Source of the DNA: a virus
Lineage: Duplodnaviria; Heunggongvirae; Uroviricota; Caudoviricetes
Length of the DNA: 29,666 bases
Direction: 5' to 3' (one strand)
Virus record (IMG/VR): IMGVR_UViG_3300009034_000003
Shown here: piece after piece, positions 4,275-26,158 of the stretch
How positions within the stretch are numbered: position 1 is the stretch's first letter
Layout of the letters: the number at the start of each line of letters is the position of its first letter
Notes under the pieces: generated by a model
What the model saw: the letters and a program-made list of their open reading frames with translations, nothing else
Told to the model about the DNA's origin: nothing
The model's database searches: none
Program-made: the position numbers and the translations under genes

Positions 4275-4616
4275 ATGAGAATTACGCCCGAATTCGATGA
4301 GAGAGAAGCTGACGCGATTATTACTTCGGTATGGTTCAATATGAACATTGATTACAAGCAATTCGGCTTGTTAGATACAAAAAACCGCGCTGAGGATATT
4401 GAGCGGTTTGCAAGTGTACAAGGTGTCCGGTATTCAATTTTGTCCAAGGTTATCGAAGCTGCTCGCGGGTGTTCAAACTACGAGGAGTATGAAAAGATTC
4501 TTGCTCGTGCCAGAGACATTATGGTAGTGGCAAGGGGGGTACAACATGGACAGGGAGGAACAAAAACAGAAATATCAGGAGATAGCGGAGACGATTCGAG
4601 CGGCTCGGAAAGATAG
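4275..4616 (+). CDS. hypothetical protein
   Basis: AGGAG RBS at 4261; overlaps recA start. Confidence 0.6.
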   Translation: MRITPEFDEREADAIITSVWFNMNIDYKQFGLLDTKNRAEDIERFASVQGVRYSILSKVIEAARGCSNYEEYEKILARARDIMVVARGVQHGQGGTKTEISGDSGDDSSGSER

Positions 4617-5568
4617 AAGTATTGTAATGCTACTCGATGAAAAAGAACTCGAGCCAGTCGAGGTCATTTCTTCCGGGTCGGTCCTGCTTGATCAGGCGTT
4701 AGGCGTCGGCGGCATCCCCAGGGGAAGGATCATAGAGCTGTTTGGAGAAGAGGGTGCGGGCAAGAGTTCTATAGCCTTGAGCACTGTTGCTCAGGCACAG
4801 AAAAGGGGTATTGTATGCGCGTATATTGATGCCGAGAGTGCTCTCGATTTGAGATTTGCGACGGCATTGGATGTGGACACAGAGCTATTGTTAATCAGCC
4901 AAGAAAACTGTACGGAGGATGTTCTGAACCTGATTGCGGGTAGCGAAACGGGTCGCGAAAAAGAACCCGGTCTCATGGACGTTGGAGTCCAGTTGATCGT
5001 AGTAGATTCCGTTGCTGGGTTGGCTCCGAGAGCGGAACTTGAGGGCGCTTTTGGTGAGTGGCAGGTAGGGCTGCAAGCTCGTTTGATGGGTCAGGCGATG
5101 CGCGGCATGGCAAAGCGGGCACGAGCTACTAATACCTGCCTTATTTTTATCAACCAGATTCGAGAGAAGATCGGCGTCAGGTTTGGTAATCCCGAAACAA
5201 CTCCTGGAGGCCGTGCTCTGAAGTTTTATGCGACAATACGTCTTGATGTCAGGGGAAGAGGCCAAATAAAGTTAGGAACCGAGCCAGTAGGCATTAGGAT
5301 AAGTGCCTATGTCGCAAAAAATAAAGTGTCCCCTCCTTTCAAAAGGGTGCAGCTTGACTTCTTTTTTGACAAGGGATTTGATAATGAGCTTGCGTGTTTC
5401 GATATAGCAGCAGAGTGTGGTGTGATAGTCAGAAAAGGTAAGAGTGGGTATTACACATGGGCGGGGGAACCAGAGGTTTCTAAGCTTCGAAAGGACTGGG
5501 CTGATTATTTTAGAGAGAACGTTGATAAGCTGAAACAGCTTTTAGATGAGGTGAATGCATGTGACTAA
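4546..5568 (+). CDS. recA: RecA/UvsX-family recombinase
   Basis: SSGSVLLDQALGVGGIPRGRIIELFGEEGAGKS (Walker A), LIVVDSVAGL, GLQARLMGQAMR, FINQIREKIGV, PETTPGGRALKFYA. Confidence 0.97.
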   Translation: MDREEQKQKYQEIAETIRAARKDRSIVMLLDEKELEPVEVISSGSVLLDQALGVGGIPRGRIIELFGEEGAGKSSIALSTVAQAQKRGIVCAYIDAESALDLRFATALDVDTELLLISQENCTEDVLNLIAGSETGREKEPGLMDVGVQLIVVDSVAGLAPRAELEGAFGEWQVGLQARLMGQAMRGMAKRARATNTCLIFINQIREKIGVRFGNPETTPGGRALKFYATIRLDVRGRGQIKLGTEPVGIRISAYVAKNKVSPPFKRVQLDFFFDKGFDNELACFDIAAECGVIVRKGKSGYYTWAGEPEVSKLRKDWADYFRENVDKLKQLLDEVNACD

Positions 5569-6487: not shown

Positions 6488-6691
6488 ATGGCAACAAAAT
6501 CAATTAAGGAAGCTTTTGCAGCCGCAATAGAGGAAGTTGCCAGGGAGGATGCGGAGAGGGTGGGATTTGATATTGCTAACGAACCTCATGGATTGGCTAG
6601 AGCGATTATGGCGGTGCTAGCGAGTCAGAAGCTAAGAGCTAAGGCTGTTAAACGGGCCAAAGAGATGGCTGGAGGCGGAGAGGATGTATGA
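6488..6691 (+). CDS. hypothetical protein
   Basis: Short co-oriented ORF. Confidence 0.55.
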   Translation: MATKSIKEAFAAAIEEVAREDAERVGFDIANEPHGLARAIMAVLASQKLRAKAVKRAKEMAGGGEDV

Positions 6692-7280
6692 AGTAGCTAT
6701 TGAGGTTAAGTTCGATGCTGCTCATAGGTTATTGGGCTATGAGGGAAAATGTAAGTTCCTGCACGGCCATTCCTATGTTGCCATTGTCTGTTTATCTAGG
6801 CGAGAGCTAGAGGGCCCCGGATTCGTGATCGATTTTGGCTTTATTAAGAAGCATGTGAAGGGATGGATCGACAAATTTTGGGATCATGCTGTTATCCTGA
6901 ATAAAGAGGATAAACTCGTTACATTCTTGTCCGAACTTAGGCCGGACGAGATATCTGATGTTCTTGAGTCAGTTGGCGGGATAAATCAACAGGAGATAAC
7001 GAGAAGGAGGTTTCTCTGCGATCGTCTGGAAGAGTCACGGGTATTTGTGATGTATAACGATCCAACGGCGGAACGCATGGCTGAACTGCTTTTTAACGTT
7101 GTAAGCACTGCTTGTCCTGACAAGATTCCCCAGGTGATCGGGATTGCGAATGCTGGAGGATTTCCGCTCGAGGCAAGTTTTGGAGAAATTGAGAATCCTA
7201 TTACGGTGGAGTATGTAACAATAAAAGAAACGGCGACATCGTGGGCTACATATAGGCCAGGTGAAGAAGATGCTTCCTAG
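6684..7280 (+). CDS. queD: 6-carboxytetrahydropterin synthase QueD
   Basis: FDAAHRL...CKFLHGHSY, IDFG, DHAVILN, PTAERMA, IKET motifs. Confidence 0.92.
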   Translation: MYEVAIEVKFDAAHRLLGYEGKCKFLHGHSYVAIVCLSRRELEGPGFVIDFGFIKKHVKGWIDKFWDHAVILNKEDKLVTFLSELRPDEISDVLESVGGINQQEITRRRFLCDRLEESRVFVMYNDPTAERMAELLFNVVSTACPDKIPQVIGIANAGGFPLEASFGEIENPITVEYVTIKETATSWATYRPGEEDAS

Positions 7281-8064
7281 AAATCAGTGTCCTTGGGCTT
7301 TAACCTACGCAGATGGTTCCTACGAGTGTATAATGGATCTTGGAAGGCCCAAAGGGTGCGAGGGTGACCGCGAGAAGTGTTCCTTTGGAGACTTTTCCGC
7401 CTATGATCCTAACTTGGAGATGCACATATCTGAAATTTATCCAGCCATTTCAGGTGAGGGAGCAACAGCTGGTACAGTATGTACGATTGTCCGCACTGTT
7501 GGTTGTAATTTGAGATGCTTGTGGTGCGATACGAAGTATGCCTACGAGGGCGGTGATATTGTCTCTACACAGGATATACTGGATGTGGTTATCAAGTTTG
7601 GACTCAATTCAGTGCTTTTTACGGGTGGAGAGCCTCTATTGAACGAGCAGATTGCATCGAATTTCCTGAGGGCGCTGCTCGAGAATGAAATAATTGCGTT
7701 TGTAGAGACTAATGGATCGGTTGATATACGTCCATTTGTACCTTTAGCGCATATAGTACTGGATATTAAGTGTCCTAGTTCCGGGATGAGTGACAAGATG
7801 TTTTGGGATAATGTTCAGTACATCGGCTTTGATGACGAAATCAAGTTCGTTGTGTCTAGTAGGGAAGATTACGAGTACGCTAAGGGTAGGATAGAGGAAC
7901 ACCAATTAACCAAGAGGACTCAGAATATCTTTATGTCTCCGGCATGGGGTGACAAATCGTTTTTTCAGGAGCTATCTAGCTGGATGGTCGTGGATAGATC
8001 CCCAGCGAAATTGTCGATACAGCAACACAAGGTTATCTGGGGCCCGAAGGAAAGAGGTGTATAG
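7270..8064 (+). CDS. queE: 7-carboxy-7-deazaguanine synthase QueE (radical SAM) with Cys-rich N-terminal extension
   Basis: EIYPAISGEG, GCNLRCLWCDT (CxxxCxxC), FTGGEPLL, VETNGS, DIKCPSSG, QQHKVIW. Start uncertain (7261 or 7270). Confidence 0.92.
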   Translation: MLPRNQCPWALTYADGSYECIMDLGRPKGCEGDREKCSFGDFSAYDPNLEMHISEIYPAISGEGATAGTVCTIVRTVGCNLRCLWCDTKYAYEGGDIVSTQDILDVVIKFGLNSVLFTGGEPLLNEQIASNFLRALLENEIIAFVETNGSVDIRPFVPLAHIVLDIKCPSSGMSDKMFWDNVQYIGFDDEIKFVVSSREDYEYAKGRIEEHQLTKRTQNIFMSPAWGDKSFFQELSSWMVVDRSPAKLSIQQHKVIWGPKERGV

Positions 8065-8765: not shown

Positions 8766-9581
8766 ATGCGAGTACCTATCTCTAAGATTGGGGAGTTACA
8801 AAAAGTAGATATCGAGAACGATCGCGACAAAGGCGGGATCGTTTGTTACGACGACTACGCGCGGGTTTGTACCGTTTTTACTGGAACTCGTCGAGATATA
8901 GGTGACCGGTCGCCCTTCCGTATGGCAGAAATGTTCGGGGGTAGCTGGATCGACTATAATAATCACTTCGTTATTCAGCTGGCCGGATGTCCCCTGAACT
9001 GCCCCTACTGTTATGTAGATAATCTAGAAGCAGATACACACTTCTCCGCGGTTTCACTGGTGGAGTTGTATAAAGTTATTAGATTTGAGGCATTAACAAA
9101 GTTTGGAGTGAGTCTGAAAGTATTACATGTTATGGGAGGAGCTCCCGCAGTTTATTGTGAGTTTTGGCCTAAATTGCGGATGGAGTTAGATGCACTGGGT
9201 TCGTATGGCGAAGATGTTATAATATTTTCCAATGTGATTTTGGTAGAGAATTGGTTCTATGGTGTCGAGCCTTGGCGTTTTATGAACATCAAGAACTTTA
9301 TCGTAGAGGGCTGTTTGAAGGGAACGAATCGGAAAAACTTCATGGATAATACGGGTCATGATTTGTTTGGGGCAGCAGTTCGTGAGCTTTTCTACTATGT
9401 CCCCTACGATAATTTTTACCTTTCTCTGATAGGTCACGATGAGGATGACCTCCCGATGATTCACCAGTGGATAGAACCCGAGCGAGTAGATACATTGCAG
9501 ATCGTAGGATACGAGGCGACTAAAGCGAAAATGGCTGTGAGCGATGGACAACATAGGGCAGGAGATGTTGGTTATGGTTAA
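8766..9581 (+). CDS. radical SAM protein
   Basis: GCPLNCPYCYV (CxxxCxxC) and MGGAP motif. Confidence 0.8.
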   Translation: MRVPISKIGELQKVDIENDRDKGGIVCYDDYARVCTVFTGTRRDIGDRSPFRMAEMFGGSWIDYNNHFVIQLAGCPLNCPYCYVDNLEADTHFSAVSLVELYKVIRFEALTKFGVSLKVLHVMGGAPAVYCEFWPKLRMELDALGSYGEDVIIFSNVILVENWFYGVEPWRFMNIKNFIVEGCLKGTNRKNFMDNTGHDLFGAAVRELFYYVPYDNFYLSLIGHDEDDLPMIHQWIEPERVDTLQIVGYEATKAKMAVSDGQHRAGDVGYG

Positions 9582-10862: not shown

Positions 10863-11141
10863 GTGATAGATCTTCGGTGTATAATCTGTGATAAGACTGA
10901 GCGACTGCAACCCTCAGAGATTGCAAAGCGAGGCTGGCTTCTTCGGCATCATGATGAAGCGTATAACCTTATGTTTTGTATTATGTTATGTCCGGAGCAT
11001 AATACTCCCGAGAACGACGAGAAGGCAGTGGGAATTCGTAGGAAGCGTCATGTTCGGATTGTAGCTGAGGATCGATTTCCTGATTGGTATTTTGAAGATG
11101 TTGTGGATGGGGGTAGTAGTGATAAAGAAGATCAAGATTAA
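10863..11141 (+). CDS. hypothetical protein (Cys-containing)
   Basis: CIICD...CPEH, possible Zn site. Confidence 0.55.
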   Translation: MIDLRCIICDKTERLQPSEIAKRGWLLRHHDEAYNLMFCIMLCPEHNTPENDEKAVGIRRKRHVRIVAEDRFPDWYFEDVVDGGSSDKEDQD

Positions 11142-12300
11142 AAGTTTTCAGTCTCATAAGGATACCGAGATATCTCCGTCTCCCGGTGTGAATGTTGTTG
11201 TCGGTAAAAATATGTCTGGAAAGAGTGCTTTGCTTCGGGCATTGCGGCTGTTGTTCTATAATAAACCCGAAGGAAGCGATTTTGTTAGTTGGGGAGATAC
11301 AAACACGGAGGTTGCAATTGAGTATGGGGATCATATAGTACGTCGTGTGAAGGGAAAGAGAAAAAACGTGTATATAGTAGACGATAGCGAGTTTACTAGA
11401 TTCGGTAGAGCGGTTCCCCAAGAGGTTATTGATGTACTAGGAGTAGCTCCTATACGTGTAGATGATGCGGCCTACGAGCTGAACATTGGTGATCCGCACG
11501 CCCCTCCTTTCCTTGTTTCTGAAACAGATGCTGTAAAAGGCAAGGTGTTTTCTAGGCTTGGTGAGCGTTTGCTTGGGGACCTTGTTCGTTTGGATAAAGC
11601 AATTACGAAGGCCAATACCACTCTTCGGAAAATGGGTTCTGAATCCAATGTTTTAGCCAGTGAGGCTTCTACTGTTGAAGGTGCGCTGGACGCTTTTTTG
11701 CCTCTGGATGGCATAGAAGGAAAATTGAGTATGTGCCATAGCCTGCTTGCTAGAGCTGCAAGTATGGAAGAGGATCTTGATCAGCTAGGGTCATATAGTG
11801 AAACGCTTAGGCAGGTAGGAGCTGATATTGAATTTGGTAATAATATAGTTGCTGTGTATGATTTTGTGGATCTCGATTCTAAGGTGTCTGAGGCGGTCGA
11901 TTTCCAGAGGGAACTGGAGGTTCTTACAAAGAGCAGGGGGTATTTAGTTGATATTGAAACGGCTGCGACTGATCTAAAAGCAAGGCACAAAGTACTGGGC
12001 GTTATCCCCGAGATCTCACAAGCCGAGAGGGCACTGGAGGAGCTGGAATCACTGCGTGCTCTCTCGCTTGATTTACAACGAGTAGACAAGGCTATAAATC
12101 GGGCGAAATCTTCGCGAGAACGAGTAGCAAGTCAACTGGACAAGGCGCTTCATGAGTACCAAGAGAAGCTACTCGAGGCGAAAAGGTGCCCGATCTGTTT
12201 TGGTCCTGTGGATGAGCACAGTATAGAAAGGATTTTAGAGGAGCTTACGAGCGATGGAGAGGGCGGAAATAGAGGAGATGGTAAAGGGTCTAATAGCTAA
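11119..12300 (+). CDS. sbcC: SbcC/Rad50 (gp46-like) ATPase, N-terminal half
   Basis: IKIKSFQSH...VVVGKNMSGKSALLRAL (Walker A), coiled coil, ends just after a CPIC zinc hook; no Walker B. Confidence 0.85.
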   Translation: MIKKIKIKSFQSHKDTEISPSPGVNVVVGKNMSGKSALLRALRLLFYNKPEGSDFVSWGDTNTEVAIEYGDHIVRRVKGKRKNVYIVDDSEFTRFGRAVPQEVIDVLGVAPIRVDDAAYELNIGDPHAPPFLVSETDAVKGKVFSRLGERLLGDLVRLDKAITKANTTLRKMGSESNVLASEASTVEGALDAFLPLDGIEGKLSMCHSLLARAASMEEDLDQLGSYSETLRQVGADIEFGNNIVAVYDFVDLDSKVSEAVDFQRELEVLTKSRGYLVDIETAATDLKARHKVLGVIPEISQAERALEELESLRALSLDLQRVDKAINRAKSSRERVASQLDKALHEYQEKLLEAKRCPICFGPVDEHSIERILEELTSDGEGGNRGDGKGSNS

Positions 12301-12493
12301 GTATTCTTCTCTAGGAGAAGTTACTGATGTGTGGTTGAATCCCTATGTGATGGAAGTTCTTGATCCTCGGCCGCCATTGGAACGATTGAACGCGCATTAT
12401 AAAATAGGACCGGTGTGGGTATCAGCGTTTTCAGAGTTACAAGAGGATGAAGTCCGTATAGCATTTTGTACTAAGATTGGTACTGGAGAATGA
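12254..12493 (+). CDS. hypothetical protein
   Basis: Co-oriented ORF overlapping both neighbours. Confidence 0.5.
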   Translation: MERAEIEEMVKGLIAKYSSLGEVTDVWLNPYVMEVLDPRPPLERLNAHYKIGPVWVSAFSELQEDEVRIAFCTKIGTGE

Positions 12494-13359
12494 GTCTCCT
12501 TGTTTTGACCGATATACATATGTCTGCGAGTAAACCAGCCGGAAGAGTAGGTGACTACGTTGCTGATGTGGACGCCAAGTTACAGGAGGTAGCGGACCTC
12601 GCACATAAGTTGAATGTAGATGCTGTTCTTTGTGCGGGTGATATTTTCCACCGACCAGCTCCAGCACTTTCTGTGCTCGCTCGTTTTCTAACCTTTTTGG
12701 AGTGGCTGGATATACGTTTTATTACTATTCCGGGTTCGCACGATTTGGTCGGTAATAATCTTGACGTTTTATACCGGACGGCGATCGGTGTGCTGGATCG
12801 TCTAGGCTTGATCGAGCTGCTCACACCCGTGACAAAAGATGTGACTAGGGTCGGACCGTTTGTTGTAGGGTCACCTTATGTCGATGTTCCAGACATTAAA
12901 CTTGTGCATGAATCAGTAGTCCCGGAACCGACCTTTGGGGAGTACACCTTACTTAAGGATTATAAGGCTCGTTCCAAGATAGTAGTTGTCGGTCATGAGC
13001 ACAGCGGGTATGACCTAAAGACAATTGACAGTACCACTTATGTTTGTCCCGGTTCTTTAGTCAGGACTGTAGCTCGGGAGAGCGAATTGGATCGAAGACC
13101 CAGAGTGGCGATTATACGCGAAGATTACAGTGTCGAGTGGCGTGAGTTACAGATAGCTAAGCCAGGGAGCGAGGTGCTTGTACCACCCATTGTGACCCCT
13201 GAGGTAGATTTTGCTGGTGTTGTCAAAGAATGGGCTTCCGTGAAGATAGAAGAGATTGATGTAACTACACTGCTTAAAGAGGTAGCAGAGGAGGAAGAGG
13301 CCCCCAAAGAAGTTATAGATTACGCGCTTGCGATGCTTGGAGATGATAGTGGCTTATAG
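12490..13359 (+). CDS. sbcD: SbcD/Mre11 (gp47-like) metallophosphoesterase nuclease
   Basis: LTDIH, AGDIFH, PGSHD, HES, GHEH, PGSL motifs. Confidence 0.9.
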   Translation: MSLLVLTDIHMSASKPAGRVGDYVADVDAKLQEVADLAHKLNVDAVLCAGDIFHRPAPALSVLARFLTFLEWLDIRFITIPGSHDLVGNNLDVLYRTAIGVLDRLGLIELLTPVTKDVTRVGPFVVGSPYVDVPDIKLVHESVVPEPTFGEYTLLKDYKARSKIVVVGHEHSGYDLKTIDSTTYVCPGSLVRTVARESELDRRPRVAIIREDYSVEWRELQIAKPGSEVLVPPIVTPEVDFAGVVKEWASVKIEEIDVTTLLKEVAEEEEAPKEVIDYALAMLGDDSGL

Positions 13360-16242: not shown

Positions 16243-16752
16243 ATGGAGACCAAAAAGATTCAGGAAGGGATAGTTCGCGTTCTTGGTCCGGTTGGTTCAG
16301 TTTTAGATGTAGGCTGCGGTGATTGCTCATTGGTCCGGTTCCTCGCGAAGACGATAGCGCAAGAGGCCATTGGTATCGATTTGGAGAGGGACTTTCCGGA
16401 GAAGATGCGGTTTAACATAGGCGGAGAGGGCCATACAGCAGAGTGCATAGAGGGTGACGCCCGTGCCATAGATTTTCCCGATGGGCGCTTTGACGCTGTT
16501 GTGTCCATGCGAGCTTTTCACGAGGTAGAAGATCCAGCAGGCGCTTTGTTCGAGATGCGGAGGGTGCTAAGACCTGGAGGAATGTTGCTAGTAGCAGATT
16601 TTACGGAAGGCGAGCCCGACGAGAGTGAGGGTTACTATGCCCCGGAGGCTATAGAGTCACTGTTGAAAGAGAACGGTTTCGAGCAGGTTGAAGTGATTCA
16701 AATTCCCCGCGACACGTTCATGTTTGCTGCTGGAAAGAAACCCCCGCTCTAA
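16243..16752 (+). CDS. class I SAM-dependent methyltransferase
   Basis: VLDVGCGDC, GIDL, EGDARAIDFPDGRFDAVVS...FHEV...EMRRVLRPGG. Confidence 0.9.
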   Translation: METKKIQEGIVRVLGPVGSVLDVGCGDCSLVRFLAKTIAQEAIGIDLERDFPEKMRFNIGGEGHTAECIEGDARAIDFPDGRFDAVVSMRAFHEVEDPAGALFEMRRVLRPGGMLLVADFTEGEPDESEGYYAPEAIESLLKENGFEQVEVIQIPRDTFMFAAGKKPPL

Positions 16753-16827: not shown

Positions 16828-16980
16828 TCGGTTGGACCGTTGTCAGTGAGTTATCACAAGTTCGAATCTTGTTCCGGGTTCCCCGGGGTGAGAGCCTCGG
16901 GCTACATGCCCGGATCGCTCGTTGGTAAGAGCACCCCTCTTCGGAGGGAACCATTCACAAGGCATTTTTTCGTCTGCCGA
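16828..16980 (+). ncRNA. Y RNA-like unit Y1 (permuted tRNA-like cargo)
   Basis: GGACCG 16834 / TCGTCT 16970 bulged helix; GTGAGTTATC; T arm ACAAG-TTCGAAT-CTTGT; closed acceptor; D arm GCTC-GTTGGTAA-GAGC; CCCTC-TTCG-GAGGG arm. Confidence 0.8.
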
Positions 16981-17031
16981 ATTGACGAAGGGGTGCAAAT
17001 TGCGAAAATTGTTAATAAAGAAGTAGTATTC

Positions 17032-17160
17032 TAACGGGCCGTTAGTTATGGGTTATCGGAAAGAGCACCAGCTTCGGCTGGCTGTACCGGTTCAAGCCCG
17101 GTTCCTTGTGCAAACGAGGATAGCTCAATAATAACGCCCATGACACCCACTCGCCCGTTA
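17032..17160 (+). ncRNA. Y RNA-like unit Y2 (tRNA-like cargo opened in D loop)
   Basis: TAACGGGCCG / TCGCCCGTTA; GGGTTATC; order GAGC, CCAGC-TTCG-GCTGG, T arm ACCGG-TTCAAGC-CCGGT, closed acceptor, TAGCTC. Confidence 0.85.
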
Positions 17161-17174
17161 TATCGACGACCTGA

Positions 17175-17308
17175 ATAAATGGGCCGGACGTATGAGGGTT
17201 ATCTCACTTTCAATGAGAAGATGGGAGGTTCGAGTCCTTCCCTACCGAAAGGTAGTAGCTCAAAGGTAGAGCACTAAATATTCCTCGTGCAAACTTTCGC
17301 CCATTTAT
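17175..17308 (+). ncRNA. Y RNA-like unit Y3 (tRNA-like cargo with intact TTC anticodon arm)
   Basis: ATAAATGGGCCG / TCGCCCATTTAT; GGGTTATC; TCTCA-CTTTCAA-TGAGA, T arm GGAGG-TTCGAGT-CCTTC, CTACC-GAAA-GGTAG, D arm GCTC-AAAGGTA-GAGC. Confidence 0.85.
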
Positions 17309-17339
17309 CTTCTTGATATATTGTATCAATTTTGTGTTG

Positions 17340-17451
17340 TGTTGGGTTGGGTTGCTAGAGGGTTGTTACAGGGATTACCGTACAATAGCTTCCGGAGGCT
17401 GTACGGACTTGGAGCAAGGTGCTGGGAAACTTGCAGCAACTCTTCTCAACA
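17340..17451 (+). ncRNA. structured RNA within array (possible degenerate unit)
   Basis: TGTTGGG/CTCAACA and GAGGGTTGT/GCAACTCTT stems, GGGATTAC motif, inner CGTAC/GTACG hairpin; no bulged Ro helix. Confidence 0.35.
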
Positions 17452-17462
17452 TAAGCGATCTT

Positions 17463-17571
17463 ATGTGGGCCGTTGAGTAAAGGTTACCATTAGCACCGCG
17501 ACCAGACCAGGGGTGGTCGTTAATATACCTTCCGCGGTTTAACAGTGTCTTTATTCGCTATTCGCCCACAT
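17463..17571 (+). ncRNA. Y RNA-like unit Y4
   Basis: ATGTGGGCCG / TCGCCCACAT; GAGTAAAG/CTTTATTC stem; GGTTACC; ACCGCG/CGCGGT cargo. Confidence 0.8.
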
Positions 17572-17593
17572 GTTCTTTGACAGGTGAATTACT

Positions 17594-17706
17594 GACTTTT
17601 ATGAGAAGATGATAGACCAAATGAGCCACGGTGCATGGCTGAGGTTTCACATTTGGCATCACCTCCTTTCAAGAGTATCATTCTTCAAATCTTGCTCATA
17701 AGAGTC
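17594..17706 (+). ncRNA. structured RNA within array (non-Y)
   Basis: GACTTTTATGAG/CTCATAAGAGTC 12-bp stem, inner CCAAATG/CATTTGG and AGCCA/TGGCT stems. Confidence 0.4.
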
Positions 17707-17708
17707 TT

Positions 17709-17906
17709 TCGGGCCGGTAGGAGAGGGTTATCAATACGATAAACCTGGTTACGGATCCGTGTAAAATCCGTATTCTGCCACGCGGGCAGAATAAAAGTAA
17801 TAAGCGCACTCGGTCGTGTGGACCGAGGTTAAACAACTAATCACTAGTCGACGGACTATAACTAATCGTAGAACGAAATGTTCGTCCTCGCCTAATATTC
17901 GCCCGA
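17709..17906 (+). ncRNA. Y RNA-like unit Y5 (multi-hairpin cargo)
   Basis: TCGGGCCG / TCGCCCGA; TAGGAGAGGG/TCCTCGCCTA; GGGTTATC; hairpins TACGGA/TCCGTA, TTCTGCC/GGCAGAA, CTCGGTC/GACCGAG, TAGTC/GACTA. Confidence 0.8.
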
Positions 17907-17943
17907 TCACCTGTCAATTCATCTTTGGGGGAGAGTAGAGAAG

Positions 17944-18097
17944 AATTGCGGACCGAAGAGGGAAGATTATCGCCTGCTCAAAAGGTCGTGGCGGACTAGG
18001 AAAACGCCAGGTGCGTGGGTGCACCGTTTCCTTCGGAGCTGGATATCGGAACCGGAGAGAATAAAATATAGACTTCTTTCAAGTCTCGTCCGCAATT
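17944..18097 (+). ncRNA. Y RNA-like unit Y6
   Basis: AATTGCGGACCG / TCGTCCGCAATT (compensatory A-U pair); GATTATC motif variant. Confidence 0.75.
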
Positions 18098-18103
18098 TCA
18101 TTT

Positions 18104-18179
18104 TGCTCCGTAGCTCAATTGGTAGAGTACCTGACTGTTAATCAGGGGGTTGTGGGATCGTTACCCACCGGGGCAGCCA
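18104..18179 (+). tRNA. tRNA-Asn(GTT), atypical T loop
   Basis: Full cloverleaf, U1-A72, CCTGA-CTGTTAA-TCAGG, G73, CCA; T loop ATCGTTA. Confidence 0.85.
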
Positions 18180-18190
18180 CGGGGCAGCCA
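18169..18190. repeat. 11-bp tandem duplication of tRNA-Asn 3' end
   Basis: CGGGGCAGCCA CGGGGCAGCCA. Confidence 0.9.
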
Positions 18191-18203
18191 TATAGAATAA
18201 CAA

Positions 18204-18347
18204 TATCGCTTGGGCCGGAGTTTTGTGGGTTATCCTTTTTGGAAGGCGTAGTCATTGGTTCAAATCCAATCGGGCACCCCAACGGTGCCTGTAGCTCAGC
18301 CAGGTAGAGCGCGTAAAACATCCACGAGCAAGTTTCGCCCGGCGATA
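18204..18347 (+). ncRNA. Y RNA-like unit Y7 (YrlA-like; permuted tRNA retaining CCA)
   Basis: TATCGCTTGGGCCG / TCGCCCGGCGATA; GGGTTATC; T arm ATTGG-TTCAAAT-CCAAT; CGGGCACC-CCA-AC-GGTGCCTG; D arm GCTC-AGCCAGGTA-GAGC. Confidence 0.88.
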
Positions 18348-18352
18348 CTTTT

Positions 18353-18490
18353 TGCTGGACCGCAGTAGATGGGTTACCTTGAAAACCTGAATGTCGTTAG
18401 TTCAAATCTAACCCCTTCCACCAATGGAAGGGTAGCTCAGTTTGGTAGAGCGTCAGGGTGTGTGTTCCATTTACGTTAACTCGTCCAGCA
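18353..18490 (+). ncRNA. Y RNA-like unit Y8 (YrlA-like; complete permuted tRNA-Phe(GAA))
   Basis: TGCTGGACCG / TCGTCCAGCA; GGGTTACC; TTGAAAA-CCTGA-ATGTC-GTTAG-TTCAAAT-CTAAC-CCCTTCC-A-CCA-AT-GGAAGGG-TA-GCTC-AGTTTGGTA-GAGC-G-TCAGG. Confidence 0.9.
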
Positions 18491-18508
18491 TTTGATAAGG
18501 GGATTGAC

Positions 18509-18748
18509 TTGTCTACACTCGAAGCTATTAAATTAACACCAGATATACGGACAGACTTAATGATTCTGGTTGCGAAGGAGCTACAGCAGGCTGCCGGAGA
18601 AGTTGATCTGTCTGTAAAGGAAAACGCCTATACGGTTGCCGTTTCTCTTGTTAGCTCAATCGCTACGCACTTGGAGTCCTGTAAGCTTCAGGAGGAAAGT
18701 CTTTCAGGGCATACAGTAAAACGGATGTTAGTTCCAGTAGGCGTGTAA
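18509..18748 (+). CDS. hypothetical protein embedded in Y RNA array
   Basis: AAGGGG RBS plus TTG start; fills the gap between Y8 and Y9. Confidence 0.5.
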   Translation: MSTLEAIKLTPDIRTDLMILVAKELQQAAGEVDLSVKENAYTVAVSLVSSIATHLESCKLQEESLSGHTVKRMLVPVGV

Positions 18749-18750
18749 TG

Positions 18751-18844
18751 TTCGGGCCGGAAAGTCAGGGTTATCTTAGGCAAAGCCGGTTCATCTAAGT
18801 GGATGGGCCGGTGGGATTTCTCCCTGATTTACAACTCGCCCGAA
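18751..18844 (+). ncRNA. Y RNA-like unit Y9
   Basis: TTCGGGCCG / TCGCCCGAA; AGTCAGGG/CCCTGATT; GGGTTATC; single cargo hairpin. Confidence 0.85.
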
Positions 18845-18870
18845 GCTTGAATAACGGATGGTGATGTGTA

Positions 18871-19071
18871 ATGGCAAGATGTGATACTTGTCCTTGCGCT
18901 CGCTGGGATGGCAGCAGCGATACAACGGTATGGTGCCGGAAGAAAAAGAAATACATAAAGGTCGGTAGGCTAAGGCATTTATTTGCTGCTGCGGAAACTA
19001 TTCAGCACGAACTCGAAGAGAGTAGAAAGATTATTCGGGCCGGAGATTCTCGGTTATCTAATTGCTTTTAG
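18871..19071 (+). CDS. small Cys-rich hypothetical protein embedded in array
   Basis: CDTCPC...WC; 3' end overlaps Y10. Confidence 0.4.
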   Translation: MARCDTCPCARWDGSSDTTVWCRKKKKYIKVGRLRHLFAAAETIQHELEESRKIIRAGDSRLSNCF

Positions 19072-19134
19072 ACTGAGGCCTATTTCCCACAAGAAGTCCC
19101 AGGCCTCTTTATTCCGAGGTCACAACTCGCCTGG
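19034..19134 (+). ncRNA. Y RNA-like unit Y10
   Basis: GGGCCG 19037 / TCGCCT 19127; CTCGG/CCGAG; GGTTATC; GAGGCCT/AGGCCTC cargo. Confidence 0.8.
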
Positions 19135-19142
19135 TATTTTGT

Positions 19143-19215
19143 TGTCTGGGCCGGTTGGTGTTGGTTATCACTAAAACCCTTTAGCAAGAATCCGACGCCG
19201 CTAACTCGCCTGACA
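19143..19215 (+). ncRNA. Y RNA-like unit Y11 (near-minimal)
   Basis: GGGCCG 19148 / TCGCCT 19206; GGTGTTGG/CCGACGCC; GGTTATC. Confidence 0.8.
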
Positions 19216-19221
19216 TTTTCA

Positions 19222-19276
19222 TGGGCCGGAGCACGAGGGTTACCTGTCCAGTTCCCCTTGTGCACTAACTCGCCCA
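19222..19276 (+). ncRNA. Y RNA-like unit Y12 (minimal)
   Basis: TGGGCCG / TCGCCCA; GCACGAGGG/CCCTTGTGC; GGGTTACC. Confidence 0.8.
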
Positions 19277-19290
19277 AATAAAAACTGGAC

Positions 19291-19350
19291 TTCATTGAGC
19301 CGAGCATCAGGGTTATCGGTTGCGTTCCTGGTGCGTTATTCGCTTGTGAA
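19291..19350 (+). ncRNA. Y RNA-like unit Y13 (minimal, abuts Ro60 RBS)
   Basis: GAGCCG / TCGCTT (compensatory); GCATCAGG/CCTGGTGC; GGGTTATC; ends at the GGAGG at 19351. Confidence 0.75.
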
Positions 19351-19363
19351 GGAGGTTTCACAA

Positions 19364-21274
19364 ATGAACAGAAGTTTGCAACAATTCGGTACAAAGAAAA
19401 CGCCTCAAGATGAGCGTATTCCCGGTCGGCCAGAAATGGTCGAGAATTATGCCGGTGGATACGGCTGGGAAGTAGACGACTGGATGAAGCTTCGCAGGTT
19501 CCTTTTCCTAGGAACAGAGGGAGGAACATATTACATTGGTGAGCGCGAGCTTACCAAAATGAACTGCGAAGCTATTATAAGGCTTATCGAGACGGATGGT
19601 GTCAACGTAGTTAATACTGTCGCCGAGATAAGCGACGCAGGTCGCGCTTATAAGAATGATTACGCTCTCTTCGTACTGGCAATGTGTGTTGGTATGGGGG
19701 ACAGTGCGACTAGACGAGCTGCGTTTGATGCTGTGCCAAAGGTTGCAAGGATCGGTACCCATGTGCTTCATCTCATTAGCTTCGCCGAGCAGTTTAGAGG
19801 CTGGGGCAGAGGTTTCAAGGGCGCTGTTGCCGGTTGGTATAATGGTAAGTCGCCAAGGGATCTTGTGTACCAGGTGCTGAAATATCAATCTCGTGACAAG
19901 TGGTCTCAGCGCGATGCTTTAAGATCTTGTCATCCAAAGCCAGCGAGTGACGTTTACGATTTCATCTACAGATACGTCACTCATGGAGTTAATAGACCGT
20001 TGTTTGAGCTTTCACCTGGGCACGGTGACGCTCTAGTTCCAATGGCTTCTGGGACCCTCGGTGGTCTTACAACTCAAGGTATATACGCCGACTTTGGGAA
20101 TAATGGTATCAGTTTTGTAGGAAGGCCTTCTGCAAAGCGAGTAGACGGCGAATGGCGTGTAAAAGATGTTCACGATGGTAAGATAAAGCAAAGCTTTTGC
20201 ATCAAGAAAGAAGGCGACAAGTTCGTTGTGTACGAGGACGCATTGTCATATTCTATGCGCGACATCGTTGCGCTAGTTGACAAGTACGGGGAACATGGCG
20301 TCGGTATGATCGAGGGCTTTGAGGAGGCTAAGAGAGCGGCCTCTGCAATTGAGATCGTGAAACTGATACGCGAGTATAATTTACCTCGTGAGTGCATTCC
20401 AACCCAGTTCCTTAGGGAGAGGGACGTTTGGAAGGAACTGCTTACCGCGGGCAGGGGAATGCCTATGACCGCCATGATACGGAACCTTGGCAATATGTCC
20501 AAGTGCGGTCTTCTCGTAGAGGGTGCTTTCGACATTATCAAATACGTCAGTGAACGTGTAACTGATCAGGAGATCTTGAAGAAAGCGCGTATACATCCGC
20601 TTGGGGTATTAGCCGCACTGAATACCTATGGTCGAGGCCGCGGTTTCAGGAGCGATAGTGAATGGCCAGTGGTCGGAGATGTTATGGATGCTTTGGACAA
20701 GGCTTTCTATTTGTCGTTCGACAATATCGTTCCTACAGACCAAAGAATCTGTATCGGTCTTGACGTTAGTGGTTCAATGGGCGGCGGCGAGATATTAGGT
20801 ATACCAGGTATGCAGCCTAGGATGGGTGCATGCGCAATGGTAATGGTTACCTATAGAACTGAGCCGTATGTTGCTGTCACGGCTTTTTCGCATCAGCTCG
20901 TTCCAGTTAGAATGCAACGGAATGAAAGCTTGAAAAGCCTTATGACTCGCACTGCCGCAATCCCAATGGGTGGAACCGATTGTGCGTTACCTATTCTCTG
21001 GGCGACCGAGCAGTATAAACGGAACTCGGACATAGTGTTCGATGCGTTCATAGTTTATACCGACTACGAGACGTGGTTCGGTAACATTCATCCGTGTCAG
21101 GCGCTAAACCAGTATCGTAACCTGACAGGGCGCCCAGTTCGTATGGCGACGGTCGGTTTGAGGGCTGAACCGTTCACCATTGCTGACCCGGAGGATTCGG
21201 GTACAATGGACTTTGTAGGATTTGACACGGCAGCGCCCGCAATGTTAAGTCAATTCTTACGAGGGGAGCTTTAG
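19364..21274 (+). CDS. rsr: Ro60/Rsr RNA-binding protein (TROVE + vWA), 636 aa
   Basis: NYAGGYGW...LRRFLFLGTEGGTYY, RIGTHVLHL, KYQSRDKWSQRD, LPRECIP, MPMTAMIRNLG, IHP, MIDAS LDVSGSM, GGTDCALP, TDYETW, GFD. ATG at 19364 after GGAGG. Confidence 0.95.
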   Translation: MNRSLQQFGTKKTPQDERIPGRPEMVENYAGGYGWEVDDWMKLRRFLFLGTEGGTYYIGERELTKMNCEAIIRLIETDGVNVVNTVAEISDAGRAYKNDYALFVLAMCVGMGDSATRRAAFDAVPKVARIGTHVLHLISFAEQFRGWGRGFKGAVAGWYNGKSPRDLVYQVLKYQSRDKWSQRDALRSCHPKPASDVYDFIYRYVTHGVNRPLFELSPGHGDALVPMASGTLGGLTTQGIYADFGNNGISFVGRPSAKRVDGEWRVKDVHDGKIKQSFCIKKEGDKFVVYEDALSYSMRDIVALVDKYGEHGVGMIEGFEEAKRAASAIEIVKLIREYNLPRECIPTQFLRERDVWKELLTAGRGMPMTAMIRNLGNMSKCGLLVEGAFDIIKYVSERVTDQEILKKARIHPLGVLAALNTYGRGRGFRSDSEWPVVGDVMDALDKAFYLSFDNIVPTDQRICIGLDVSGSMGGGEILGIPGMQPRMGACAMVMVTYRTEPYVAVTAFSHQLVPVRMQRNESLKSLMTRTAAIPMGGTDCALPILWATEQYKRNSDIVFDAFIVYTDYETWFGNIHPCQALNQYRNLTGRPVRMATVGLRAEPFTIADPEDSGTMDFVGFDTAAPAMLSQFLRGEL

Positions 21275-25365: not shown

Positions 25366-25623
25366 ATGGAATTCAAAGAGTCACGACATGGAAGAAGAAT
25401 AAGGCATACCGAGCGAGTTATTAGGAACAGGTTACGGTTTCTCAAGGCAATGGGACCGGATGAGTGGTATAAGGTGCATCTTGGGGATAGGCACAGATTA
25501 GCTAAGAGGCACCCTTGGGATTGCGGTCGAAGCAAATGTCATATATGCCATCCCGAAAAGCTTTTTGGGCGACCGAAAGCCAAGAATATAATACCGAAGT
25601 ATGAATATGAAGAGATACCCTAA
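25366..25623 (+). CDS. hypothetical basic protein
   Basis: HPWDCGRSKCHICHPEK, putative Zn motif. Confidence 0.65.
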   Translation: MEFKESRHGRRIRHTERVIRNRLRFLKAMGPDEWYKVHLGDRHRLAKRHPWDCGRSKCHICHPEKLFGRPKAKNIIPKYEYEEIP

Positions 25624-26158
25624 GATATACAGGATTCAAATAGAGGGTTTTGTCAAGAGAGGAAAGTACTATCTTACTCCTGATGAAGTTACTCGTCTTC
25701 TTGATGGTCCAATTTGCGTCGAAGAGAAGATCGATGGGAAACTCGTGGAGTCACCTCAACATGAGCAAGAGGGTTATATTCTTTTTTACGAGAATGCTAA
25801 GCGAAGGCACACTGTAGAATACATGCAATTGCCAGCTTGGCTAATTGGTATTGATGTTTGGGATGGAGAATGTTTTCTCGGCCGGACAGACAGGGAAATA
25901 GTCTTTGGGGCGTTGGGCGTTCCTGTTGCTCCATTGCTTTTCAAAGGCTGTGTAAATAGTATTCATTCACTCATCACTTTCATAGGCCAGCCTTCAGCAT
26001 ATGGTGCTGAACGTATAGAAGGGATTGTTATCAAGAATTACAGCCAACAGATGATGGGTAAAATTGTTGATCCGGTTTTCGATCGCATAGTGGATACAGC
26101 AGGTCATCATCTGAAAAGGGCTTTTGTTAGAAACAGATTGGATTTGAGCTATGTCTAA
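25601..26158 (+). CDS. ATP-dependent RNA ligase, Rnl2-like (minimal nucleotidyltransferase domain)
   Basis: YPKI, motif I EEKIDG, FYEN, IGIDV, VPVAPLLFKG, motif IV EGIVIK, motif V GKIV. Confidence 0.75.
   Translation: MNMKRYPKIYRIQIEGFVKRGKYYLTPDEVTRLLDGPICVEEKIDGKLVESPQHEQEGYILFYENAKRRHTVEYMQLPAWLIGIDVWDGECFLGRTDREIVFGALGVPVAPLLFKGCVNSIHSLITFIGQPSAYGAERIEGIVIKNYSQQMMGKIVDPVFDRIVDTAGHHLKRAFVRNRLDLSYV

What the first reader, a model, noticed from the sequence alone, without database searches (positions are those of the whole stretch)
16856..18457. Five Y RNAs carry circularly permuted tRNA modules opened at different positions
Seen: the Y stem replaces a different tRNA junction in each unit. 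Y1 opens at the variable loop (T arm 16856, closed acceptor, D arm, UUCG-capped anticodon arm). Y2 opens in the D loop (GAGC 17063 first, TAGCTC 17121 last). Y3 opens between the D arm and anticodon arm (intact TTC arm, GAAA-capped acceptor). Y7 opens in the 5' anticodon stem. Y8 opens at position 31/32. Established: YrlA has a T-acceptor-D tRNA-like module attached where the anticodon arm would be. Inference: attachment at the D loop, variable loop or D/anticodon junction is a different topology. It would present different tRNA faces (elbow, anticodon, acceptor) to different enzymes, for example as decoys for host tRNA-targeting defence nucleases.
Basis: partly seen in the sequence, partly recalled or inferred. 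Interest (0 to 1): 0.9.

Follow-up and report, generated by a model that had tools for sequence, protein, structure and literature searches.

The report
Phage Y RNAs with re-wired tRNA mimics
Five small RNAs encoded just upstream of a phage Ro60 gene each carry a tRNA look-alike joined to the Ro60-binding stem at a different point of the tRNA, including two rare joins (D loop, variable region), which widens the known design of tRNA-mimicking Y RNAs.

Summary
Observation confirmed. Window 16830-18488 (+) holds five Y-RNA-like genes of a 13-unit array that ends at a Ro60 (TROVE+vWA) gene. When each cargo is circularised, only these five pass a tRNA detector: ARAGORN 108-124, against 112-120 for the window's real tRNAs. 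Other units gave 0 hits, 150 shuffles gave 0, and 1 of 60 random segments hit. A profile of 255 phage tRNAs matches the re-permuted cargos nearly end to end.

The join falls at different tRNA positions:
- Y1: variable region.
- Y2: D loop.
- Y3: position 26/27.
- Y7: position 28/29.
- Y8: position 31/32.

Y8 is essentially the published YrlA layout. Y3, Y7 and Y8 form one series along the 5' strand of the anticodon stem, and all keep a 7-nt anticodon-like loop. The Y7 layout is the commonest in 57 phage Ro60 loci (44 of 98 modules) and occurs in mycobacteriophage Cali. The Y1 layout recurs in 3 other contigs and the Y2 layout in 4. A relative with 62%-identical Ro60 has syntenic orthologues with compensatory changes.

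Function (tether, gate or decoy) is untested. This scan has noted phage Ro60/Y arrays with several wirings on other DNA. I found no note or paper describing the D-loop join. Verdict: a new variant of a known kind.

The parts
16830..16978 (+). Y1, with the Y stem at the variable region. Y 5' strand 16830-16855; T arm 16856-16872; closed acceptor 16873-16914 (7 bp plus an 8-bp GAGA-capped extension); D arm 16917-16932; UUCG-capped anticodon-like hairpin 16935-16948; Y 3' strand 16949-16978.
   Evidence: Orthologue with the same order of elements at L019 1838-1960.
17036..17156 (+). Y2, with the Y stem inside the D loop. Y 5' strand 17036-17057; GGAAA plus D-stem 3' strand GAGC 17058-17066; UUCG-capped anticodon arm 17068-17081; T arm 17086-17102; 7-bp acceptor capped by GCAA 17103-17120; UA plus D-stem 5' strand GCUC plus AAUAAUAA 17121-17134; Y 3' strand 17135-17156.
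   Evidence: (MFE = centroid, z -3.57). L019 2543-2680 is the orthologue, with 8 compensatory changes. Same wiring in L183, L185 and L188.
17181..17302 (+). Y3, with the Y stem at the D-stem/anticodon-stem junction. Y 5' strand 17181-17203; complete local anticodon arm with loop CU-UUC-AA 17202-17218; T arm 17224-17240; 5-bp acceptor capped by GAAA 17242-17255; D arm 17258-17272; Y 3' strand 17283-17302.
   Evidence: (YrlA 28.5 bits, with the hairpin treated as an insertion). Orthologue at L019 2259-2385, 85% identical.
18212..18340 (+). Y7, with the Y stem branching from the 5' strand of the anticodon stem (28/29). Y 5' strand 18212-18233; local 3-bp hairpin with 7-nt loop UU-UUG-GA 18234-18246; positions 42-43 at 18247-18248, pairing with 27-28 at 18312-18313; T arm 18254-18270; 7-bp acceptor with C73-CCA-AC linker 18271-18291; D arm 18294-18310; Y 3' strand 18320-18340.
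   Evidence: YrlA 38.3 bits; 124.2. Class-wide support.
18355..18488 (+). Y8, canonical YrlA-like, with the Y stem continuing from the anticodon stem (31/32). Y 5' strand 18355-18378; 7 nt UUGAAAA 18379-18385; anticodon-stem 3' strand 18386-18390; T arm 18396-18412; 7-bp acceptor with A73-CCA-AU 18413-18432; D arm 18435-18451; G26 plus anticodon-stem 5' strand 18452-18457; Y 3' strand 18465-18488.
   Evidence: YrlA 38.9 bits, full length; z -4.18. The L019 3187-3335 orthologue keeps the 5-bp stem through two compensatory changes and also has exactly 7 nt before it (read).
19364..21274 (+). Ro60 (TROVE plus Ro60-type vWA) gene, the presumed protein partner of all the Y units.
   Evidence: Pfam PF05731 at 5.7e-32 and PF25045 at 1.7e-51.

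Best explanation
These are five genes of a phage Y-RNA array. Each RNA has two modules. The first is a terminal stem formed by the 5' and 3' ends that carries the Ro60-binding signature (5' GGNCCG...GGGUUAYC, 3' ...CUCGCCC). The second is a cargo that is a circular permutation of a tRNA with its acceptor end closed by a loop.

The cargo is linked to the stem by short single-stranded linkers: UUAUC on the 5' side and an A-rich run on the 3' side. Because of these linkers, the stem can leave the tRNA body at almost any backbone position without disturbing the L-shaped fold. In this array it leaves at the anticodon loop (Y8), part-way up or at the top of the 5' strand of the anticodon stem (Y7, Y3), the variable region (Y1, like the long arm of a class II tRNA), and the D loop between positions 16/17 and G18 (Y2).

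Shown: the elements, their order, their tRNA-likeness, and conservation of each wiring in other phages.

Inferred: phage Ro60 binds the stems. The tRNA-like cargos serve as adaptors or gates that bring tRNA-binding proteins (modification enzymes, RNase P, nucleases, repair enzymes) to Ro60, or keep them busy. The different exit points leave different faces of the mimic free (anticodon loop, elbow, acceptor end). Y7 and Y8, with 7-bp acceptors and encoded NCCA, may be cut by RNase P as M. smegmatis YrlA is.
For: - Ro60 gene directly downstream.
- Sub-threshold but full-length hits to Rfam YrlA for Y3, Y7 and Y8, and to the nematode Y-RNA homologue model for Y2 and Y8-Y12.
- tRNA-likeness of the re-permuted cargos by two methods with clean controls.
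- Distinct join classes.
- Thermodynamic folds.
- Orthologous units in L019 (Ro60 62% identical). Y2 has 8 compensatory double changes with all stems kept. The Y1 T stem has 1 compensatory change, and its anticodon-like hairpin is replaced by a different stable hairpin.
- The D-loop wiring occurs in three more contigs, one with Ro60 520 nt downstream.
- The Y1 wiring occurs in L040 and L042.
- The Y7 wiring accounts for 44 of 98 modules from 57 Ro60 loci. In those modules all five anticodon-stem pairs are kept in 42-44 of 44, with 5-8 base combinations per position (5-6 of them standard pairs), and the loop shows U33 in 42/44 and R37 in 43/44.
- Register tests that do not use ARAGORN's reading of the anticodon arm: a 7-nt loop in 48 of 107 modules against 10-22 for other loop lengths, and pairs 27:43 plus 28:42 in 77 of 102 against 17-32 at other offsets.
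- RNAalifold covariation for the Y stem, T, acceptor and D stems across 30 units.
- Published precedent: YrlA is a permuted tRNA mimic with tRNA-type modifications, and M. smegmatis YrlA is cut by RNase P (PMC4201824; bioRxiv 10.1101/312249).
Against: - No expression, binding or probing data exist for this phage.
- No unit reaches the Rfam YrlA gathering score (best 38.9 against 69), and Y1 and Y2 give no YrlA hit.
- The D stem of the D-loop type is GCYC/GAGC everywhere, so the helix that defines that wiring has no covariation support. In L183 and L185 it has only 3 of 4 pairs, and the L019 MFE does not form it.
- Y1 lacks A14, and the L019 Y2 orthologue lacks A58.
- Y7 as a whole is not more stable than shuffles (z -1.22).
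- For Y1 and Y3, sequence alone cannot say which helix stacks under the D stem.
- The selection of modules by ARAGORN score biases the pair counts.
Confidence: 0.8

Rival explanations
1. Decoy array. The tRNA mimics, especially those with intact anticodon-like loops (Y3, Y7, Y8), are bait or competitive inhibitors for host tRNA-cutting defence nucleases or other tRNA-directed defences. Ro60 stabilises or positions them. It is a special case of the adaptor model, not its opposite.
For: The anticodon-loop signature is kept in the Y7 class: Y32 in 37/44, U33 in 42/44, R37 in 43/44. The array lies among phage tRNA genes, an RNA ligase gene (PF09414) and a methyltransferase whose best PHROG is 'tRNA methyltransferase'. 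A Ro60-shaped protein of phage Bas63 counters the ppl defence (PMC11482910).
Against: Y1 and Y2 have UUCG caps instead of anticodon loops. The loop triplets are not conserved between orthologues: window Y8 has GAA but L019 does not. No nuclease, host or defence system is known for this phage. Nothing here tests cleavage or binding.
Confidence: 0.2
2. Permuted pre-tRNAs. The Y stems are processing handles, and the cargos are matured (cut and joined, then opened at the acceptor) into decoding tRNAs, as with the permuted tRNA genes of the red alga Cyanidioschyzon.
For: Re-permuted Y7 and Y8 score as well as real tRNAs and carry N73-CCA. An RNA ligase gene lies 7 kb downstream.
Against: Y1 and Y2 have UUCG in place of the anticodon loop. 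Y1, Y2 and Y3 have acceptors sealed by GNRA loops or a long hairpin, with no discriminator or CCA, and Y3 has only 5 acceptor pairs. The stems carry the Ro60 signature and lie next to Ro60. Y7 pairs a Gln-type loop with C73 and G1:C72. The Y8 'Phe' triplet is not conserved in L019.
Confidence: 0.05
3. One topology with decorations. In three dimensions the Y stem always takes the place of the anticodon stem, as in YrlA. The extra hairpins of Y1, Y3 and Y7 are side insertions, not anticodon arms.
For: The Rfam YrlA model aligns Y3 and Y7 end to end by treating the hairpin as an insertion. Some phage units have T-acceptor-D only, with UUAUY serving as the variable loop (L033, L174, L058).
Against: This cannot apply to Y2, where the two D-stem halves flank the stem. 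In the Y7 class the 3' strand runs unbroken from the long-range pairs into the local hairpin, with a loop of exactly 7 nt and tRNA-like U33/R37. In Y1 and its L019 orthologue the hairpin follows the D stem after 1-2 nt, as an anticodon stem does.
Confidence: 0.15
4. Decaying debris. The units are chance products of recombination between tRNA genes and Y genes, with no selected structure.
For: Arrays of tRNA and Y genes are recombination-prone. Unit order differs between the window and L019.
Against: Each wiring is kept in a phage whose Ro60 is only 62% identical, with compensatory changes, and recurs in unrelated contigs. There were no hits in shuffles.
Confidence: 0.03

Closest known systems
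YrlA (Rfam RF02553; S. Typhimurium, PDB 6CU1; Chen 2014 PMC4201824; Wang 2018 bioRxiv 10.1101/312249)
   Same: Encoded next to Ro60. Terminal Ro60-binding stem. Cargo is a permuted tRNA in the order T arm, closed acceptor, D arm, with the same UAGCUCA..GGUAGAGC D arm. Y8 has the same wiring.
   Different: Published YrlA lacks an anticodon loop and joins only at the anticodon stem. Here Y3, Y7 and Y8 keep a 7-nt anticodon-like loop, and Y1 and Y2 join at the variable region and the D loop. No unit reaches the Rfam gathering score.
M. smegmatis YrlA and mycobacteriophage YrlAs
   Same: 7-bp acceptor; cut by RNase P and given CCA, with both halves staying on Rsr (PMC4201824). Y7 and Y8 have 7-bp acceptors with encoded NCCA. 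The middle Y unit of mycobacteriophage Cali has the Y7 wiring.
   Different: Processing is untested here. The local anticodon hairpin of the phage units is not mentioned in the texts I could read, and the supplements are not held.
D. radiodurans Yrn1
   Same: A Y RNA whose tRNA-like part is wired differently from YrlA, with D and T arms in the native order and an anticodon-like arm between them. This is the precedent for more than one wiring (PMC4201824).
   Different: None of the five units has that wiring. A unit of L019 (3052-3175) does.
Class II tRNAs (long variable arm), and permuted or intron-bearing tRNA genes of Cyanidioschyzon and Archaea (from my own knowledge, not checked here)
   Same: A helix leaving the tRNA core at the variable region (as in Y1), or breaks and insertions in the D loop and other non-canonical positions (as in Y2), are tolerated by the tRNA fold.
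   Different: Those are decoding tRNAs or their precursors. Here the acceptor is sealed and the extra helix is a Ro60 handle.
Vertebrate Y RNAs and nematode sbRNAs (Rfam RF01656)
   Same: The stem motif GGNCCG...GGGUUAUC / ...CUYGNCC. The sbRNA model hits Y2, Y8-Y10 and Y12 at 21-35 bits against a gathering score of 38.
   Different: Animal Y RNAs have no tRNA-like module.

Membership tests
Y RNA / YrlA (RF02553) | Encoded beside a Ro60/Rsr (TROVE) gene | tested here: met
   TROVE and Ro60-vWA domains at 19364-21274; the array ends about 10 nt before it.
Y RNA / YrlA (RF02553) | Stem formed by the 5' and 3' ends, carrying the conserved Ro60-binding sequence | tested here: met
   The shared motifs are visible in all units. 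The stem base co-varies in 30 related units. The sbRNA model gives hits. Actual binding is not testable here.
Y RNA / YrlA (RF02553) | tRNA-like module in the order T arm, closed acceptor, D arm | tested here: met
   In Y2 the D arm is split by the stem.
Y RNA / YrlA (RF02553) | Y stem replaces the anticodon arm, and the match reaches the Rfam gathering score (69 bits) | tested here: not met
   Best scores are 38.9 (Y8), 38.3 (Y7) and 28.5 (Y3); Y1 and Y2 give no hit. Mycobacteriophage Cali's unit also scores only 36.1, so the model is narrow.
tRNA (RF00005 / ARAGORN) | Cloverleaf in linear order with free acceptor ends | tested here: not met
   No linear tRNA call in 16830-18488 apart from tRNA-Asn at 18104-18179. 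The cloverleaf appears only after circular permutation.
Permuted tRNA genes (Cyanidioschyzon type) | The 3' half lies upstream of the 5' half, and maturation yields a complete decoding tRNA | tested here: not met
   The order of halves is met. However, Y1 and Y2 lack anticodon loops and Y1-Y3 have sealed acceptors without a discriminator or CCA. Processing motifs were not tested.
Yrn1-type Y RNA | Y stem at the acceptor position, with D arm, anticodon-like arm and T arm in native order | tested here: not met
   In all five units the T arm lies upstream of the 5' half of the D stem.

The most novel reading that the evidence does not exclude
Phage Ro60 particles carry an interchangeable library of tRNA mimics. 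Their stems are deliberately moved around the tRNA body so that each RNA offers a different intact face (anticodon loop, elbow, acceptor) to a different host or phage tRNA-handling protein. For example, they could sequester tRNA-cutting defence nucleases or steer repair and modification enzymes. The D-loop join would then be a purpose-built way of exposing both the anticodon arm and the acceptor/T arm while Ro60 sits at the elbow.
Probability: 0.15. Interest if true: 0.85.

Novelty: new variant of a known kind. Interest (0 to 1): 0.6.

Why it matters
YrlA-type Y RNAs are known tRNA mimics whose partners are still unknown. A single phage array that presents the same mimic through five different joins is a natural experiment. 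It shows that the Ro60 handle and the tRNA body are separable modules, and that an intact anticodon-like loop is under selection in most phage versions. It also gives ready-made constructs for asking which face of the mimic is read and by which protein.

There is also a practical point. These RNAs are being annotated as tRNAs. The 'tRNA-His' of Streptomyces phage Blueeyedbeauty is one case, and the L019 D-loop unit passes the Rfam tRNA threshold in linear order.

Tried and rejected
- An Rfam search at gathering thresholds finds only the seven real tRNAs.
- blastn of the array against 50,697 phage records matches only the embedded tRNA-Asn.
- No whole genome is held for this window.
- The exact-junction pattern for Y2 gave 46 matches in IMG/VR, of which 45 are chance matches and one is the L019 contig.
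- The metagenome scan with Ro60 found no relative closer than L019, and no further D-loop or variable-region units.
- RNAalifold on the MAFFT alignment of 30 Y7-type units missed the anticodon hairpin because that stretch is misaligned. I replaced it with register tests in Python.
- A MAFFT alignment of the five D-loop-type units was too poor in its 3' half to build a covariance model.
- A descriptor search that allowed any D-stem sequence found only GCTC/GAGC cases, so there is no covariation for that helix.
- The promoter and terminator scan was not clearly above the shuffle expectation.
- Several 'variable' or 'D-loop' calls by ARAGORN in other loci turned out to be tandem tRNA genes or second-best cuts of Y7-type units, and were dropped.
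- Reviews by Sim and Wolin, Burroughs and Aravind 2016, and the supplements of Chen 2014 are not held. A prior description of these wirings there cannot be excluded.
Full report
**What is there.** The stretch 16830-19360 (+) is a head-to-tail array of 13 small units. Each begins with GGNCCG...G(G/A)UUAYC and ends with ...CUCGYCC, the two strands of a Y-RNA-type stem. The array runs straight into a 636-aa gene with TROVE and Ro60-type vWA domains. Below the curated thresholds, Rfam places Y3, Y7 and Y8 on the YrlA model over its full length (28.5-38.9 bits, gathering score 69). It places Y2, Y8, Y9, Y10 and Y12 on the nematode stem-bulge RNA model, a Y-RNA homologue. The surroundings look like a large phage: seven tRNA genes, RecA, 7-deazaguanine pathway genes, an SbcCD-like pair, an RNA ligase, and a methyltransferase whose best PHROG is 'tRNA methyltransferase' directly upstream of Y1. 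No whole genome is held.

**Checking the observation.** Every coordinate in the finding is correct.
- Minimum-free-energy folds recover a T arm, a closed acceptor hairpin and D-arm elements in all five units.
- For Y2, the MFE and the centroid are both exactly the cloverleaf closed by GAGC/GCUC around the Y stem. The z-scores are -2.05, -3.57, -3.26, -1.22 and -4.18 for Y1, Y2, Y3, Y7 and Y8.

- All five units give tRNA calls. Best scores are 108.8, 108.3, 110.5, 124.2 and 118.0, against 111.6-120.0 for the window's real tRNAs.
- The six other units scanned gave no call in about 5,300 cuts.
- None of 150 dinucleotide shuffles gave a call, and 1 of 60 random window segments did, at 103.3.
- A sequence profile built from 255 phage tRNAs taken from other loci matches the re-permuted cargos almost end to end (29.7 to 10.8 bits). 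It scores 23-33 bits on real window tRNAs, gives only partial 7-15 bit matches to the native order, and 6 bits or less on shuffles.

**Where the stem joins.** The position of the join in the ARAGORN cloverleaf is stable for each unit and differs between units.

| Unit | Join position | Notes |
|---|---|---|
| Y1 | Variable region | |
| Y2 | D loop, after base 14-18 | G18, G19 and A21 lie on the 5' side of the module; U8 and A14 lie on the 3' side |
| Y3 | Between the D stem and the anticodon stem | |
| Y7 | Inside the 5' strand of the anticodon stem | Pairs 27-28:42-43 are long-range; pairs 29-31:39-41 form a local hairpin with a 7-nt loop |
| Y8 | Anticodon loop | |

- For Y8, several registers score alike, and RNAfold prefers a competing 8-bp helix.
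- The L019 orthologue settles the Y8 register. It keeps the 5-bp tRNA-register stem through two compensatory changes, cannot form the competing helix, and also has exactly seven bases between the Y motif and that stem (read).
- Y8 is therefore the published YrlA wiring with the loop bases retained.
- Y3, Y7 and Y8 form a series of cuts along one strand (26/27, 28/29, 31/32).

**Relatives.** A profile of Ro60 proteins fetched 80 IMG/VR loci, and a single-protein scan fetched 46 metagenome loci. T-arm-like hairpins lie almost only on the Ro60 strand. Of 237 T arms outside linear tRNA calls, 167 give permuted-tRNA calls.

After filtering, 98 unique modules from 57 loci remain:

| Wiring | Modules |
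|---|---|
| Y7 | 44 |
| Anticodon-loop (canonical) | 28 |
| T arm directly after the Y motif | 7 |
| D-loop | 2 |
| Y3 | 2 |
| Unclear | 15 |

*The Y7 class.*
- It has a fixed plan...GGUUAU, then a 2-5-bp (mostly 3-bp) hairpin with a 7-nt loop, then 2-3 bases that pair with the 2-3 bases after the D arm, then an A-rich 3' linker.
- Two register tests support it that use only the T-arm position (plus, for the second test, the D-arm end) and not ARAGORN's reading of the anticodon arm. A 3-bp hairpin closes a loop of exactly 7 nt in 48 of 107 modules, against 10-22 for other loop lengths. Pairs 27:43 and 28:42 both form in 77 of 102 at the tRNA register, against 17-32 at other offsets.
- Within the class, all five pairs are kept in 42-44 of 44 modules, with 5-8 base combinations per position (5-6 of them standard pairs). 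The loop has U33 in 42 and a purine at position 37 in 43. The selection by score biases these counts.
- The middle Y unit of mycobacteriophage Cali has this wiring. The sequences were therefore within reach of the 2014 survey, although neither paper's text mentions the hairpin.

*The rare wirings.*
- L019 (Ro60 62% identical) has a syntenic array with orthologues of Y1, Y2, Y3, Y5, the tRNA-Asn, Y8 and a small ORF.
- The Y2 orthologue has the same D-loop-opened order. It carries 1, 2 and 5 compensatory double changes in the anticodon, T and acceptor stems, with every stem fully paired. It has a full 7-nt loop in place of UUCG.
- The Y1 orthologue folds by MFE into the same five-helix plan, with a different stable hairpin after the D arm.
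- A looser pattern scan found the D-loop wiring in three more contigs. One (L188) has seven Y motifs upstream and Ro60 520 nt downstream.
- The Y1 wiring (T, acceptor, D, extra hairpin) also occurs in L040 and L042.
- Weak point: the D stem is GCYC/GAGC in every case, so the helix that defines the D-loop join has no covariation.
- L019 also holds a unit with the native tRNA order inside the Y stem, like D. radiodurans Yrn1.

**What is known.**
- Chen et al. 2014 (PMC4201824) and Wang et al. 2018 (bioRxiv 10.1101/312249) describe YrlA as a tRNA mimic resembling a circularly permuted tRNA with a closed acceptor, no anticodon loop, and the Ro60 stem in the anticodon position.
- They note that M. 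smegmatis YrlA, with a 7-bp acceptor, is cut by RNase P and gains CCA. They also note that Yrn1 is wired differently.
- Phage Ro60 with two Y-like RNAs has been studied in Thermus phage phiLo (PMC12135203).
- A Ro60-shaped protein of Bas63 counters the ppl defence (PMC11482910).
- I found no paper describing joins at the D loop, the variable region or within the anticodon stem. Several reviews and the 2014 supplements are not held.
- Earlier notes of this scan report phage Ro60/Y arrays with several wirings on other DNA, including an exit from the variable region and un-permuted forms. None mentions the D loop.

**Mechanism.**
- Shown: a modular RNA, made of a Ro60 handle, short linkers and a permuted tRNA body, with the handle placed at five points.
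- Inferred: Ro60 binds the handle. The tRNA body docks tRNA-binding proteins or blocks the Ro60 cavity, as proposed for bacterial Y RNAs. The exit point decides which face stays free.
- The sealed acceptors and UUCG caps of Y1-Y3 argue against maturation into decoding tRNAs.
- The conserved anticodon-loop signature in most phage units suggests that something reads that loop.

**Verdict.** Its functional idea is untested. This is a new variant of the YrlA kind, with the D-loop and variable-region joins as the unusual part.

Noticed in passing
L180 2405-2540 (Streptomyces phage Blueeyedbeauty, MH536814.1 67008-67143): The annotated 'tRNA-His(gtg)' (67008-67080) is the 5' part of a Y RNA. It has a Y motif, a local anticodon-like arm with a GUG loop, a T arm, a closed acceptor, a D arm and a Y 3' strand. 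It is probably a mis-annotation, and one likely to recur in phage records.
   Followed up: partly
L019 2551-2623: The D-loop-type unit of L019 passes the Rfam tRNA gathering score in linear order (33 bits against 29), because the Y 5' strand stands in for the acceptor and D 5' halves. Annotation pipelines would call it a tRNA.
   Followed up: partly
L019 3052-3175: A Y unit whose tRNA-like cargo is in the native order (D arm, capped anticodon-like hairpin, T arm), with the Y stem continuing from the acceptor. This is the Yrn1-like wiring. Rfam tRNA gives 42.1 bits.
   Followed up: partly
window 18458-18748; L019 3358-3590: A small ORF (96 aa in the window) sits inside the Y array, directly after Y8, in both phages. 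It has no Pfam or PHROG match.
   Followed up: partly
L179 3100-3440 (Mycobacterium phage Cali, upstream of gp224 Ro): Three unannotated Y units lie upstream of the Ro gene. The middle one has the Y7 wiring with a UGC loop. Rfam YrlA scores it at only 36.1 bits, so the Rfam model misses phage YrlAs at its threshold.
   Followed up: partly
L001 5330-5910: A five-unit Y array upstream of Ro60 includes one unit with only a T arm plus a GCAA-capped helix (a tRNA 'top half') and one with a GCAA-capped hairpin in the variable-arm position.
   Followed up: no
window 6684-8064 and 8766-9581: QueD-like (PTPS) and two radical-SAM genes, suggesting a 7-deazaguanine pathway. RecA lies at 4546-5568, an SbcC-like ATPase at 11092-12300 and a metallophosphoesterase at 12490-13359.
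   Followed up: no
window 16243-16752 and 25601-26158: A SAM methyltransferase (best PHROG 'tRNA methyltransferase') lies directly upstream of Y1. A short RNA ligase (PF09414) lies among the tRNA genes downstream of Ro60.
   Followed up: partly
window 18271-18292: In Y7 the base before G1 can pair with C73, giving an 8-bp acceptor in the MFE. This resembles the G-1:C73 pair of tRNA-His, although the loop triplet is UUG.
   Followed up: no
Ro60 loci L001-L086: T-arm-like hairpins are almost all on the Ro60 strand (about 555 against 15 on the other strand). The 3' linker of Y7-type units is nearly always (U)AAAAC-like.
   Followed up: partly
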